Source: Octopus vulgaris
Lineage: Eukaryota
Assembly (NCBI GenBank): GCA_951406725.2
Contig: OX597818.1
Span: 33,418,001 to 33,482,000, forward strand
Length of the DNA stretch: 64,000 nt
Direction: 5' to 3'
Shown: piece after piece, positions 18,443-24,024 of the stretch
How positions within the stretch are numbered: the first letter of the stretch is position 1
Layout of the letters: each line of letters begins with the position of its first letter
Notes under the pieces: model-generated
What the model saw: only the letters and a program-made list of their open reading frames with translations
Databases searched by the model: none
Told to the model about the DNA's origin: nothing
Made by a program: the position numbers and the translations under genes

Positions 18443-20713
18443 CATACATATATTACATTCATTCCATATTTCTCTCCTCCAAAATCTATTTCCGTTATCT
18501 TCCAATATCTCTGATAATAAGTTTGCAGTTTTAAACATGAATTTCTACATGGAAATTTCTCACATAGAACATTTTCTAAATGTATAATACTATGTGCACA
18601 ATTTCTTCTCTTCAATCCATATATAAACAAGCACTTGTACTATTCTTTTGTTCCATTTACAACTCTTAAAATATATTTCTAAAGACGTTTTTTAACTGAA
18701 TCATAATAGATTCGTTTCACTCAAGTTTTATTTATTTCCTTTACTCCGTTCCTATTTGTCCATCCTTCTTTCCTTCCTCTGTACTTTCCTGTTTTATTTA
18801 ATAATCTATTATTCTCCCTCTATCACTTGCTGCCTTTATACTAATTTCCATAGACAACTTTAACCAATTAAATATATATATATATCGCCAGCAGCAGATA
18901 TTTTACTTAGGTCTAAGAAAGTATTACTTTCCTGTAATTTCCACGCTTCGGTGCATCTAGCTTTACACATTAATAAGCATGCTCATTTTCCAATTTTCGA
19001 TATTTTCATTGTATTACTTTCAAAATATAATCTATTCATTTCAGAAAATTGTGTAAGACGAATTAAGATATTTAAAACACAATAATTAATATAAGAAACT
19101 AACAAGCAAATTTTGGTCTAGTTATATTCCAAATCTTTAACATCATTACAAAACAATAATTGTAGAAAAAGAAAAATTGATTTGGCACATGTAGAAAATA
19201 TATGCAACTAAAATGCATCAATGTAAACAAATATTAAAGGGTTCATTAACAAATGAAAAAAATGACTCACACAACTAACATAAACCCCGCTTTTTAGGGA
19301 AGTTGGGACCCGATGCTGTAGCGTCTACGTTGTCGCAATGGCTTGCTAAAACACTACGCGAATCTGCCTCCGCTTATCAGATAATGAAAGTGTAGATAGA
19401 TATATGTGTCTGAAAAATATAACCCATGTGAGCATACATGGAGGAGGGTATTTGATCATAGGATCCACTTTATTAAGATTGACCCGATGCTAAGCAATAC
19501 CTGCAGCAAGCAACTCACTGTTTATATTTCATAAACGCCATAGTTTGCTGGAGAAAGACATTGAATAAGATATACCAGTTCTGGTCGCTGTATATGCAAG
19601 TGGGATACAATAACGCTATTGAAATTTATTTAAGCCATCTATATAAAATTGTGATTGCAATGTAAGTAGTTGAATTCTGAAACAGTGATTACAAAACTCT
19701 ACAACGTCAACCAAGTTGAGTTATATCGCGATAATGAATGGCACTCCGTGTAAACGCTTGATCAGTTAGAAACATTAGATAAAGATGTCCTAGACTGCAT
19801 ACACCTGAAAAGAATACCTGTGGTCATTCAGAAATGGCTTGAGAACGATCAGCACAAACAGGCTGAGCAATAAACCTCTGTCTACAGATATAAAATATCT
19901 CATAAAAATTAAGTACCGACATCCAAATATAGAACCCTTTAACAGTTTTCTTATATTTTCAGTGCATGCTACGACATTAGCATCGAGCAATGGTTATCAT
20001 AAATTCTATAATCTGTTTATTGATATGACTCCATTAATTCCCTACTTCTACATCTTCAATTATGTGATGGATATATTAATCTGATTAATTTGTTATCTCT
20101 GTGGCAGACTGACAAAGCCATTGACATTGGATTGTTTCCAAAACTATTTTCTTTAGAGAGCCATCAAATCCTAGGGAATATAATGCAGTTAATATCCTGT
20201 TATTGGCGAAGAAAGGTTGTTAATTAATTCGATATCGTTCTTTCTATTCATTACACCGTATAAATATACGGAATAATAATTAGATTTATTTATTTTGGGT
20301 GTTTTATTATCTCTTTTGCAATATTACAATTCTTATGTTATCATGGAGTTGTGTTAAAGGTGTCCACAGAGTAGCTATCTCATGCTGTTTGGACAACAAT
20401 CTATTATATGATATTTCATTACGGAAGCTATTTGTGAGAATGCTTGAACTATAATTGACTAACAAACCAGGATGCACTCTTTTTCAGGAGATGTGAACTT
20501 CAGCCCCTGTTCGTTAGTAGTTTGATTTGTTCATCTTTCAACCAGGTACAGGTGTCTTGATATTATCTACAAACCTAGACGTTCGTAGATGGTATTAAAT
20601 TATGTAACTTTACATAACGAGTGTGTTTTGTGGACGCCCCCAGACGATGAAGTAGACTAGCCCAATACGCAGATATAGAGGGAGAAGTCTAGACATAACA
20701 GCGGAGACAAGGC

Positions 20714-20833
20714 TTTTGTAGCACACACAGCCACTGTGTAGTATTGTGACGTAACAGGGGCGACGAGTATTTCGTAGCTCACACAGCCACTGTGTAGTAT
20801 TGCGATATAGCAGAGTGCTTGAGTATACTTCGT
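20714..20833 (+). repeat. ~55-bp minisatellite, two copies
   Basis: gtagc.cacacagccactgtgtagtattg.ga...gagtat repeated. Confidence 0.8.
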
Positions 20834-20939
20834 ATTTCTCTTTTACAAAATCGAGAAATGAATGTGCCAGTCAAATTTTGAGGTTAATAAATCCAGTTAA
20901 ACTCTCCTTAAAATATGTTGTTTTCTGACTATAATAGAA

Positions 20940-22166
20940 ATCAATCAACATCAATTTAAACCAGTGGTCTAGCATATTTTAAGAAATCCGAAGAATTAAA
21001 AATTACATTACAATTAATAAGAGGAATGACCACTAAAGTGGATTCCTAATATGCTAAAGATAGACGTCAAATCGCCTTACCACGAAGAGTGTGTTCTCAA
21101 GAAAAATCTCAACAAAAACGCCAGAATGTAAAAATAATCAAAACAAATGAAAATATACAAGATAAAACGATTACCTACGTATCACCACTTCGTTATTAAC
21201 ACTTGGAAAATGCAAAATGCAAATATCTGTAACTCTTCAGCATAGTCTGTCATATTACAAAACATATTTCACAGGACTATACACACAAACGTTCACCCGA
21301 AAGAAAACTCATGTACAGTTCTGCAAAATATATTTGCGGGTATCTTTCAAATGTCTTCATTTTGGCGCGATGAGGCCGGAAATAACCTTGCAGATAATAA
21401 ATTACCGCAGTTAATTTACCGGTTGGAGAATATTGCTATTTTAAATTAAATAATGAGGCTAAAAATTGATATCAATCAACATCAATTTACATTAGTGACC
21501 TAGCATATTTTTTTTTAAATCCGAAGATTTAAAAATGATATCACAATTAATAAAAGGAATGACCACTAAAGTGGATTCCTATTACATTCTGGCGTTTTTG
21601 CTGAGATTTTCCATGAGAACACACACTTCGCGATTTGACGTCTATCTTTAGCATATTAGGAATCCACTTTAGTGGTCATTCCTCTTATTAATTGTAATAT
21701 AATTTTTAAATCTTCGGATTTAAAAAAAAATATGCTAGACCACTGGTTTAAAATGACGTTAATTGATTGATATCAATTTCTACCCTCAATTATTTAATTT
21801 AAAATAGCAATGTTCTCTAATTGGTAAATTAACTGCGGTAATTTATTATCTGCAGAGTTATTTCCGGCCTCAGCGCGCCAACATGGAGACATTTGAAAGA
21901 TAACCCCAAATACATTTTGCAGAAATGTACATGAGTTTTCTTTCGGGTGAACGTTTCTCTGTATAGTTCTGCGAAATATTTTGAAATGCGACAGAATACA
22001 CTGAGGAGTTACATTTTGCATTATGCATGTGTTAATAACGAAATCATGATACGTAAGTAATCATTTTATTTTGTATAATTTAATTTGTCTTGATTATTTT
22101 TACATTCTGGTGCTTTTGCTGCGGATTTTCTTGAGAACACACTCTTCGAGGTAAGGTGATTTGACA
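20940..22166. mobile_element. ~530-bp unit in partial tandem plus inverted arrangement (PLE pseudo-LTR-like)
   Basis: The unit at 20940-21470 restarts at ~21470-21580, and the reverse complement of ~1.1 units follows at 21581-22166. Confidence 0.8.
21997..22055 (+). ncRNA. Type I HHR with long stem II
   Basis: taca CTGAGGA gtta...taac GAAA tcatga TA cgta, with palindromic stem III ATCATGAT. A decayed mirror copy lies at ~21176-21244 (-). Confidence 0.55.
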
Positions 22167-22307: not shown

Positions 22308-22363
<56 letters not shown>

Positions 22364-22532
22364 TAATAGTTATCTCCATACTTATATGGCAGTCTTATGA
22401 ATATAAGACTAAAGCTGTCGCTGATTAGCTCCAAGAGGCCACCACCTCAAGCTAGCTATTTGACACGCGACCTGCGTCCATTATAAACCTTCGAACAGGG
22501 GAGGTCAGCCGCTTCATCCTGCTAGTCAGACA

Positions 22533-22575
22533 GCTGTAGACATGTTTCAGGGTATTTGCCCTTTATCAATGCAGC
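22533..22575 (-). ncRNA. Minimal HHR, U3:A8 variant (monomer 1)
   Basis: gctgca TTGATAA aggg caaata ccct GAAA catg TC tacagc, with one stem I mismatch. Confidence 0.75.
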
Positions 22576-22897
22576 GTAGTCAGATCCAGCAGGTATCGCT
22601 ACTGACTGTCCCTGTTCGAAGAATCTATTTACCTAGTTTCAGTGGAATACATCTACTTGTTTTCAATAATAGAAATATTAAAATTACTAAGTCTCTCTAA
22701 AGAAGATTACGGCAGCGTTAGTGGAAATTAATAGTTATCGCCATACTTATATGGCAGTCTTATAAATATAAGACTAAAGCTGTCGCTGATTAGCTCCAAG
22801 AGGCCACCGCCTCAAGCTAGCTATTTGACACACAACCTGCGTCCATTATAAACTTTCGAACAGGGGAGGTCAGCCGCTTCATCCTGCCAGTCAGACA

Positions 22898-22940
22898 GCT
22901 GCAGACATGTTTCAGGGTATTTGCCCTTTATCAATGCAGT
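22898..22940 (-). ncRNA. Minimal HHR, U3:A8 variant (monomer 2)
   Basis: ctgca TTGATAA aggg caaata ccct GAAA catg TC tgcag, exactly 365 bp from the first copy. Confidence 0.8.
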
Positions 22941-23132
22941 TTAGTCAGACCCAGCAGGTGTCGCTACTGACTGTCCTGTTCGAAGAATCTATTTACCTAG
23001 TTTCAGTGGAATACATCCACTTGTTTTCAATAATAGAAATATTAAAATTACTAAGTCTCTCTAAAGGAGATTACGGCAGCGTTAATGGAAATTAATAGTC
23101 AGTCAGTTGCGACACCTGCTGGGTCTGACTAC

Positions 23133-23175
23133 GCTGCATTGATAAAGGGCAAATACCCTGAAACATGTCTGCAGC
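23133..23175 (+). ncRNA. Minimal HHR, U3:A8 variant (inverted copy)
   Basis: gctgca TTGATAA aggg caaata ccct GAAA catg TC tgcagc: 6-bp stem I, 4-bp stem II, palindromic stem III ACATGT, GUC triplet. Confidence 0.8.
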
Positions 23176-24024
23176 TGTCTGACTGGCAGGATGAAGCGGC
23201 TGGCCTCCCCTGTTCGAAGGTTTATAATGGACGCAGGTTGTGTGTCAAATAGCTAGCTTGAGGCGGTGGCCTCTTGGAGCTAATCAGCGATAGCTTTAGT
23301 CTTATATTTATAAGACTGCCATATAAGTATGGCGATAACTATTAATTTCCAGTAACGCTGCCGTAATCTCCTTTAGAGAGACTTTGTAATTTTAATATTT
23401 CTATTATATATATATATATATAAATATGCGTGTGTGTGTGTGGGGGGTGTATGTATGTATAAATGCAGTGGATTACAGGAACAATAGCGAGGATCTGTTT
23501 ACATGCTATGCATTCTCTTCGCTCGAGTTTAAATTAAATCATAGCAAAATAGCTACAAACAACAAGAAAAGCTACAATGCGGCTTTTCTTCATTTAAATA
23601 TACCTCATTATTGCGTATAGAAATCAACTATAGAACATACATTTAAATGCATACAAGTAAATGATATTGTCTATTGTCAATCTGAAATGTATAATTGTAT
23701 TGAATAATTAATAATTTCTCTGAAAATTACACAAAATGCTTCGGATATTATGCATAAATGTGACTGACCTTCTTATGACATTCTCTTTCATTTGTATACC
23801 GACAGAATAGACGTGAATCAGTCTCTGTATCTGCCATCGTATATGTTTATCTTATTTGTTAATTTTATGCGTTTAATCTCCATTTTTAGCTCTGATCAAG
23901 CAGATTAATGTCACACAAAAGGATTTCGAGCACGTCCATAAAGTTTCTTGCTGTACCTAATCCATTGTGTTAAGTTATATATATATATATGTGCGTGCGT
24001 GTGTGTGTGTGTGTGTGTGTGCAT

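What the first reader, a model, noticed from the sequence alone, without database searches (positions are those of the whole stretch)
22361..23407. 365-nt HHR-delimited tandem monomer (retrozyme-like) with a U3:A8 core
Seen: two head-to-tail 365-bp units plus an inverted third copy between (TA)n tracts, with no ORF. Each carries gctgca-UUGAUAA-stem II-GAAA-CAUG-UC-ugcagc. Established: C3 and G8 form a tertiary Watson-Crick pair in hammerheads, so U3+A8 is a compensatory double change rather than decay. Also established: metazoan retrozymes and PLE pseudo-LTRs are tandem ~150-400-nt units with minimal type I HHRs whose palindromic stem III lets two copies fold as a dimer. Inference: minus-strand transcripts would be cut at 22904/22903 and 22539/22538, releasing a 365-nt RNA that could circularise and be re-inserted by a PLE RT. 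Standard CUGANGA searches would miss this family.
Basis: partly seen in the sequence, partly recalled or inferred. Interest (0 to 1): 0.85.

Follow-up and report, generated by a model that had tools for sequence, protein, structure and literature searches.

The report
Hammerhead retrozyme with Penelope-type insertion scars
This is one ageing copy of a protein-free jumping repeat present in hundreds of copies; it carries a predicted self-cutting RNA with a known base-pair swap, and its insertion scars suggest that a borrowed Penelope-type enzyme likely copies it from a small RNA, probably a circle.

Summary
Observation confirmed, with corrections. The element is a 741-nt minus-strand arm (2.03 units of 365 nt) joined to a 308-nt inverted arm, between (TA)n tracts, with no ORF. 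It has three U3:A8 hammerhead cores; only the inverted one has a perfect stem I.

It belongs to a dispersed family (423 exact cores genome-wide, several subfamilies). Ribozyme selection is supported:
- A 62%-identical sister family carries C3:G8.
- Stems I and II covary.
- Stem III switches among three palindromes (ACAUGU, ACUAGU, ACGCGU), which fits dimeric folding.

Copies show Penelope-like scars: two fixed 3' ends 61 nt apart, variable 5' ends and (TA)n targets. Of 61 two-armed insertions, 58 have one end of each kind. No sampled arm starts at the cut site, and repeats within one insertion share rare alleles. This favours repeated copying of one unit, likely circular.

Not shown: cleavage, circles, expression, partner enzyme. 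U3:A8 cores, animal retrozymes and their link to Penelope-like elements (PLEs) are already published. Earlier notes of this scan describe the same or similar families in this and other genomes. Verdict: new member of a known kind, with informative scars.

The parts
22308..22360 (.). (TA)n tract, left part of the insertion target
   Evidence: TRF period 2, 26.5 copies
22361..22538 (-). 3'-terminal partial unit (unit positions 1-~179); ends at the family's 'short' fixed end (~177), an inferred reverse-transcription start site
22533..22575 (-). hammerhead 2 (U3=22569, A8=22564, C17=22539; predicted cut 22539/22538); stem I broken by G2A
   Evidence: sequence
22539..22903 (-). complete 365-nt cut-to-cut monomer; long branched rod fold, z -5.3
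22898..22940 (-). hammerhead 1 (U3=22934, A8=22929, C17=22904; predicted cut 22904/22903); stem I of 5 bp
22904..23099 (-). 5'-truncated unit (positions 169-365)
23100..23407 (+). inverted arm (positions 296-365 then 1-238); ends at the 'long' fixed end (~238)
23133..23175 (+). hammerhead 3, intact (U3=23139, A8=23144, C17=23169; predicted cut 23169/23170)
23347..23407 (+). 61-nt stretch between the short and long ends, equivalent to the PLE 'tail'
   Evidence: end distribution; tail concept from PMC11167929 and PMC8557442
23408..23422 (.). (TA)n tract, right part of the insertion target
   Evidence: sequence

Best explanation
This is a decaying copy of a dispersed, protein-free 365-nt repeat with a type I hammerhead motif, likely a retrozyme whose predicted self-cutting RNA is copied, probably as a circle, by a borrowed Penelope-like reverse transcriptase/endonuclease. 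Steps: (1) a tandem copy is transcribed (inferred). (2) Two hammerheads pair through the palindromic stem III and cut out one unit (selection on the dimer fold is shown comparatively; cutting is inferred). (3) The unit is ligated into a circle (inferred). (4) A PLE protein nicks both strands of an AT-rich or (TA)n site and starts cDNA synthesis at two internal sites of the RNA, unit positions ~177 and ~238, one per target strand (fixed ends and the one-of-each rule are shown; the enzyme is inferred). (5) Each cDNA runs through the ribozyme junction and can exceed one unit before it is truncated (shown in the copies). (6) The two 5' ends are joined, giving a tandem arm plus an inverted arm as in this window (structure shown, joining step inferred).
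For: Family: 129 matches from the 40 scored of 2630 candidates; 423 exact cores against 0 control. Ends: 171 of 199 arms in 127 loci end at 165-186 or 225-247. Of 45 inverted pairs with both ends classifiable, 42 are short+long (P=4e-10; 16 further pairs had an unclassified end). A second sample gave 16 of 16 (6 unclassified). The sister family gave 4 of 4 (3 unclassified). A young intact 899-aa PLE in the genome also has two fixed ends in (TA)n and short+long inverted pairs. (TA)4 lies beside 53 of 65 ends in the youngest subfamily; older subfamilies often show 8-14 bp target duplications. Ribozyme selection: 0 of 35 hammerhead columns versus 48 of 330 other columns differ between subfamily majorities (P=0.008; partly biased by how loci were picked). 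The sister family is 61.7% identical (E 1.5e-13; alignment score 249 versus shuffle maximum 129) and has C3:G8 in 24 of 26 cores read by eye. Ten of 17 pairs, including 3:8, change on both sides. Of the first 100 of 147 non-A stem III variants, 93 are palindromic (78 ACUAGU, 15 ACGCGU). Template: 0 of 99, 0 of the first 100 of 489, and 0 of 100 arms start exactly at the cut. Segments within one insertion share 30% of their non-majority alleles versus 3.3% between insertions. No recurrent pass-specific differences were found beyond gap-placement artefacts and scattered sites.
Against: There are no cleavage, circle or read-end data; the available runs are contigs of guessed RNA status. No autonomous partner with sequence similarity was found, and the 899-aa PLE has different end spacing (+70/+227) and no similarity to the unit. 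Pair 10.1:11.1 is A:U or G:U rather than the usual G:C, and is mostly unpaired in the sister family, which may lower activity. In vitro, a PLE used uncleaved RNA and hammerhead mutants did not affect insertion (PMC11167929). Only 1 of 9 Xenopus retrozyme dimers cleaved in vitro (bioRxiv 10.64898/2026.07.22.740005). Shared alleles could partly reflect gene conversion or homogenised donor arrays. Two arms start only 4 nt upstream of the cut, and one is ambiguous (L266); one sister-family arm starts at position 1 (L217).
Confidence: 0.62

Rival explanations
1. Same PLE-borrowing element, but the template is a linear uncleaved multimer transcribed from homogenised tandem arrays, or a cleaved monomer copied with end-to-end template jumps; no covalent circle is needed and the ribozyme acts at another step.
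For: Every arm crosses the cut site without a peak of 5' ends there. Uncleaved RNA was the dominant substrate in vitro and no RNA-seq ends were seen at the cut (PMC11167929). An earlier unchecked note reports 12-unit arrays of 360-nt units in this genome (e1-8663738). Li et al. 2026 discuss array growth by unequal crossover.
Against: Many different private alleles are each shared by two or three segments of one insertion while neighbouring sites differ (for example L004, L024, L028). No recurrent pass-specific differences were seen. With 5' truncation of about 0.5-1% per base, purely linear copying would shrink arrays each generation. Among arms mapped here the longest were about 2.6 units (2.9 in the sister family).
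Confidence: 0.27
2. The copies are 5'-truncated pseudo-LTR debris of an autonomous PLE that was not sampled, rather than an independently replicating unit.
For: The scars are those of PLE insertions (PMC8557442), and retrozymes are homologous to pLTRs in Xenopus (bioRxiv 10.64898/2026.07.22.740005).
Against: The unit is closed on itself: long arms continue into another pass of the unit, never into an ORF. No shared non-unit sequence lies upstream of the cores, apart from common host repeats and the guest element. The 355-365 nt closed unit persists across subfamilies about 15-20% apart and in a sister family about 38% divergent.
Confidence: 0.07
3. A satellite-like or LINE-mobilised repeat whose hammerhead is a decayed relic, with U3 and A8 as unrelated mutations.
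For: No activity data. U3 and A8 do not covary inside the family. The window's two tandem cores carry stem I mutations.
Against: C3:G8 versus U3:A8 between homologous families, compensatory stems and three alternative palindromes. Copies are dispersed, with two internal fixed ends and no poly(A) tail.
Confidence: 0.04

Closest known systems
Animal non-LTR retrozymes (Cervera & de la Pena 2020, PMC7229834, results parts 2-3 of 6 read: coral 220-245 bp, mussel 350-390 bp, axolotl 330/350 bp; Li, Clavereau & Pollet 2026, bioRxiv 10.64898/2026.07.22.740005, parts 1-3 of 5 read, supplements closed)
   Same: ORF-less unit of about 360 nt, one type I hammerhead per unit, tandem passes, GC below 50%, highly self-paired fold, palindromic weak stem III, target duplications longer than 4 bp in older copies.
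   Different: U3:A8 core. Mostly 1-3 passes in dispersed 5'-truncated and inverted insertions rather than long arrays. Two fixed internal ends. Circular RNA is shown for the published families but not here.
Canonical EN+ Penelope-like elements and their pLTR hammerheads (Cervera & de la Pena 2014, PMC4209133, parts 1-2 of 4 read; Craig et al. 2021, PMC8557442, passages; Frangieh et al. 2024, PMC11167929, parts 1-2 of 4 read)
   Same: Partial tandem plus inverted 5'-truncated copy, 'tail' at one end only, two internal RT start sites downstream of the hammerhead, AT-rich or (TA)n targets. U3-A8 cores already reported in Schistosoma Cercyon elements (~1,300 hits).
   Different: No RT/GIY-YIG ORF; tail of 61 nt rather than 30-40 nt. 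Frangieh et al. saw no difference in start site between strands in vitro, whereas two-armed insertions here pair one short and one long end in 58 of 61 cases.
Natural U3:A8 hammerheads (Perreault et al. 2011, PMC3088659, passages)
   Same: Same compensatory swap of the C3-G8 tertiary pair; such variants are reported as active in vitro.
   Different: Here the swap can be traced between two homologous high-copy sister families in one genome.

Membership tests
Type I hammerhead ribozyme | Core positions 3-9, 12-14 and NUH cut site, with a Watson-Crick pair between 3 and 8 | tested here: met
   UUGAUAA...GAAA...UC; U3:A8 in 98 of the first 100 of 216 and 99 of the first 100 of 423; C3:G8 in the sister family
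Type I hammerhead ribozyme | Stems I and II supported by covariation | tested here: met
   4 of 6 stem I and 2 of 4 stem II pairs change on both sides in 20 hand-picked distinct sequences; essentially a few lineage-level events. Pair 10.1:11.1 is not the usual G:C.
Type I hammerhead ribozyme | Stem III formed in cis, or by a palindrome in a dimer | tested here: met
   A 2-nt loop cannot fold in cis; self-duplex -4.6 to -7.5 kcal/mol; three palindromic variants
Type I hammerhead ribozyme | Self-cleavage after H17 | not testable with these tools
   Needs an in vitro assay or raw RNA ends
Animal non-LTR retrozyme | ORF-less 150-450 bp tandem unit with one type I hammerhead each; no LTR/PBS/PPT | tested here: met
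   PBS and PPT were not searched for separately
Animal non-LTR retrozyme | Multi-copy and mobile, with target duplications longer than 4 bp when present | tested here: met
   8-14 bp duplications flagged in 15 of 52 older-subfamily elements by a crude exact-match scan
Animal non-LTR retrozyme | Highly self-paired monomer | tested here: met
   z -5.3. The antisense strand folds equally well, and covariation outside the ribozyme region is weak.
Animal non-LTR retrozyme | Accumulates as circular RNA | not testable with these tools
   Only contigs of runs with guessed RNA status; a circle junction is identical to the genomic tandem junction
Autonomous EN+ Penelope-like element | ORF encoding RT plus GIY-YIG endonuclease | tested here: not met
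   No ORF; no PLE protein remnant anywhere in the window by tblastn with three PLE queries
PLE-mobilised non-autonomous element | Partial tandem, inverted 5'-truncated arm, tail at one end, AT-rich target | tested here: met
PLE-mobilised non-autonomous element | Sequence homology to the pLTR of an autonomous PLE in the same genome | tested here: inconclusive
   None to the two PLE families fetched; other PLE families in the genome were not surveyed

The most novel reading that the evidence does not exclude
These copies are a genomic record of rolling-circle reverse transcription of a ribozyme-made RNA circle by a dimeric Penelope-type enzyme. Its two subunits would prime the two target strands at two different fixed sites of the same RNA. 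The circle lineage has replicated on its own long enough to swap its 3:8 pair and its dimerisation palindrome repeatedly and to acquire its own site-preferring guest retroelement.
Probability: 0.4. Interest if true: 0.7.

Novelty: new member of a known kind. Interest (0 to 1): 0.45.

Why it matters
How animal retrozymes are re-inserted, and why Penelope-like elements make tandem/inverted structures with a one-sided tail, are open questions in the papers read here. This family offers a short ORF-free substrate with two sharply defined start sites and a strong short+long pairing rule, so the circle and two-strand-priming models can be tested directly in the existing in vitro PLE assay. The switching among three stem III palindromes is natural evidence that such hammerheads are selected to work as dimers. 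The class of element and the U3:A8 core are already known, and this scan has noted the same kind several times.

Tried and rejected
Rfam scan: no hammerhead at E<=10; the MIR862 hit is only the inverted-repeat hairpin.

Autonomous partner not found. Same-strand core pairs 1.2, 3.9 and 8.7 kb apart, plus one pair 12 kb apart, turned out to be interrupted, duplicated or separate copies. A young 899-aa PLE (Nematis-like label recalled; no Pfam hit) and a Neptune-like family (label recalled) have no similarity to the unit. One Pfam accession I asked for is not in the library.

Depletion of 5' ends around the cut was suggested but rejected: the 3'-anchored sample has 5 ends within 4-10 nt upstream. 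That sample mixes loci from several selections.

Pass-specific variants at positions 48-55, 143/144 and 292/294 were rejected as gap-placement artefacts. The printed core tally is mis-registered for rows with a longer loop II and includes one junk row, so I recounted by eye. The first subfamily split by identity was crude and misplaced some loci; it was redone.

Whole-unit covariation is weak: variable columns are not depleted in paired positions (P=0.52) and the RNAalifold covariation term is -0.05.

Expression: no RNA holder listed; contigs of guessed-RNA runs hold pieces of the family but show neither ends nor strand.

Lunse et al. (dimeric PLE hammerheads) is not held in the library; I saw only its citation. 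Sequence look-up in earlier findings returned nothing.

Full report
Observation. The region 22361-23407 is one insertion between (TA)n tracts. I number the 365-nt unit from the base after the predicted cut. The minus strand then reads [169-365][1-365][1-179], and an inverted plus-strand arm reads [296-365][1-238]. Three cores read UUGAUAA-AGGG(caaaua)CCCU-GAAA-CAUG-UC, with C17 at 22904, 22539 and 23169 (and the sequence). Only the third has a perfect stem I. The copy differs from its subfamily's column majorities at 21 of 1049 positions, about 2%, which is typical of that subfamily. There is no ORF, and Rfam misses the ribozyme. The unit folds far better than shuffles (z -5.3), but so does its antisense strand.

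Family. The genome G000 is 2.8 Gb in 227 contigs; an octopus-like origin is my recollection from its repeats and appears in earlier notes, not a call result. It holds hundreds of copies: 2630 first-look candidates, and 216 and 423 exact core matches against 0 for the controls. Diagnostic columns in 127 loci separate five groups, A, B1, B2, C1 and C2, with within-group divergence of 2.0-6.3%. Further variants appeared. Contigs from runs of two other coded organisms also hold the family, one showing the ACGCGU variant with an all-G:C stem II.

Is the ribozyme under selection? Inside the family U3:A8 is fixed: 98 of the first 100 of 216 (one A3, one G8) and 99 of the first 100 of 423 (one C3, no C3:G8). 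A search for canonical cores with the same stem III gave 1283 hits against 40 control and exposed a sister family with a 355-nt unit. It is 61.7% identical to this unit (E 1.5e-13; score 249 versus shuffle maximum 129). Its cores are C3:G8 in 24 of 26 read by eye; 8 of those rows were pre-selected for that core, and 17 of the other 18 are C3:G8. In a hand-picked alignment of both families, 10 of 17 pairs change on both sides, including 3:8 and four stem I pairs. These reflect a few lineage events, not independent observations.

The outer stem I pair is U:A in groups C1 and C2, G.A in B2 and G:C in A and B1. Between subfamily majorities, 0 of 35 hammerhead columns differ against 48 of 330 elsewhere (P=0.008), though many loci were chosen by a core pattern. 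Stem III is the clearest sign. Its 2-nt 'loop' cannot close in one molecule. Yet among the first 100 of 147 copies whose first loop base is not A, 78 read ACUAGU and 15 ACGCGU; 3 are wobble-compatible and only 4 are non-complementary. The sister family has both ACAUGU and ACUAGU (12 and 12). This is what a hammerhead working as a dimer predicts (PMC4209133, PMC7229834). Against strong activity: pair 10.1:11.1 is A:U or G:U, and only 1 of 9 Xenopus retrozyme dimers cleaved in vitro (bioRxiv 10.64898/2026.07.22.740005).

How it inserts. Of 199 arms, 90 end at 165-186 and 81 at 225-247, with modes at 177 and 238; 5' ends are scattered. In two-armed insertions with both ends classifiable, 42 of 45 have one short and one long end (P=4e-10), and so do 16 of 16 in a second sample and 4 of 4 in the sister family. 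Pairs with an unclassified end (16, 6 and 3) were left out. Young copies sit in (TA)n (53 of 65 ends), and older ones often have 8-14 bp duplications. These are PLE hallmarks: partial tandem, inverted 5'-truncated copy, and a tail at one end only (PMC8557442). The tail is the stretch between two internal RT start sites (PMC11167929). An intact, young 899-aa PLE family in G000 shows the same kind of scar, with two ends at +70 and +227 from its own predicted cut. It proves that such machinery is present, but it shares no sequence with the unit, so the partner is unidentified.

What is the template? No arm starts exactly at the cut. This holds for 0 of 99 young arms and 0 of the first 100 of 489 older arms anchored just downstream (read by eye; these patterns skip copies with mismatches in the anchor), and for 0 of 100 arms anchored near the 3' end, where all 43 that reached the cut crossed it by at least 4 nt. 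One of those (L266) is ambiguous, and one sister-family arm does start at position 1. A cleaved linear monomer copied once is therefore not the usual template. Segments of one insertion share 30% of their non-majority alleles against 3.3% between insertions in the youngest group, including alleles private to that insertion and present in all of its segments. No differences recur between first and second passes across insertions, apart from alignment artefacts and scattered sites. The simplest reading is one unit-length template copied more than once and from both target strands, that is, a circle. A linear multimer from homogenised arrays, template jumping or gene conversion are not excluded, and in vitro a PLE preferred uncleaved RNA (PMC11167929). 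Sequencing runs could not decide the matter.

Comparison with what is known. It works like, and meets every testable criterion of, an animal non-LTR retrozyme; circular RNA and cleavage could not be tested. It is not an autonomous PLE. U3:A8 was described in 2011 (PMC3088659) and in Schistosoma PLE hammerheads (PMC4209133), and the retrozyme-PLE link in a 2026 preprint. I did not find the short+long pairing rule or the palindrome switching in the seven paper searches made. However, Lunse et al. and most subscription papers were not available, and I read no supplements, which may show such variants. Unchecked notes of this scan describe the same or similar families in this and other genomes; I formed my reading before seeing them, and they are not independent support.

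Verdict: a real feature and a new member of a known kind, whose scars make a proposed mechanism testable. Interest 0.45.

Noticed in passing
L110:2910-6445 and L123:100-2040; genome-wide pattern: A second element with gag-like ORF remnants (weak zinc-knuckle hit, E 0.049) has its 3' end abutting the unit's AGCGACAC motif (positions ~299-311) in 14 of 22 matches; 3 more share another target. L110 shows a roughly 10-bp duplication. It looks like a site-preferring retroelement that targets this retrozyme; no RT was seen in the stretches fetched.
   Followed up: partly
L186:3005-4048 and L214-L238: Sister retrozyme family: 355-nt unit, C3:G8 core, ends at ~173 and ~228, 2827 first-look candidates.
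   Followed up: yes
L170 (G000:C1:119513500-119523400): Young intact PLE family: 899-aa open frame, 3624-bp period, many copies 97-99% identical, tandem arrays, predicted C3:G8 hammerhead with a long stem II and ACACGUGU palindrome, and two fixed ends about 155 nt apart. A good candidate for an active enzyme source.
   Followed up: partly
G000; L189-L201: Several other C3:G8 hammerhead families share the ACAUGU palindrome (1283 hits versus 40 control), including a very heterogeneous short-stem group.
   Followed up: partly
unit positions -10 to -22 and -30 to -42 upstream of the cut: 5' truncations cluster in these two stretches (13 and 14 of 99 arms, none at -23 to -29, by eye). One search shows a similar gap. 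Unexplained; possibly RT stalling at ribozyme helices.
   Followed up: partly
window 20933-22165: Nested long inverted repeats (arms of 102-194 nt at 87-94%) immediately left of the element; probably a separate foldback or MITE-like insertion.
   Followed up: no
window 20692-20813: Short tandem of a 56-nt unit, 2.2 copies.
   Followed up: no
G000:C29:29565431-29687134: Five near-identical family copies, several spaced about 8.9 kb apart; part of a larger tandem duplication with no PLE ORF in L173/L174.
   Followed up: partly
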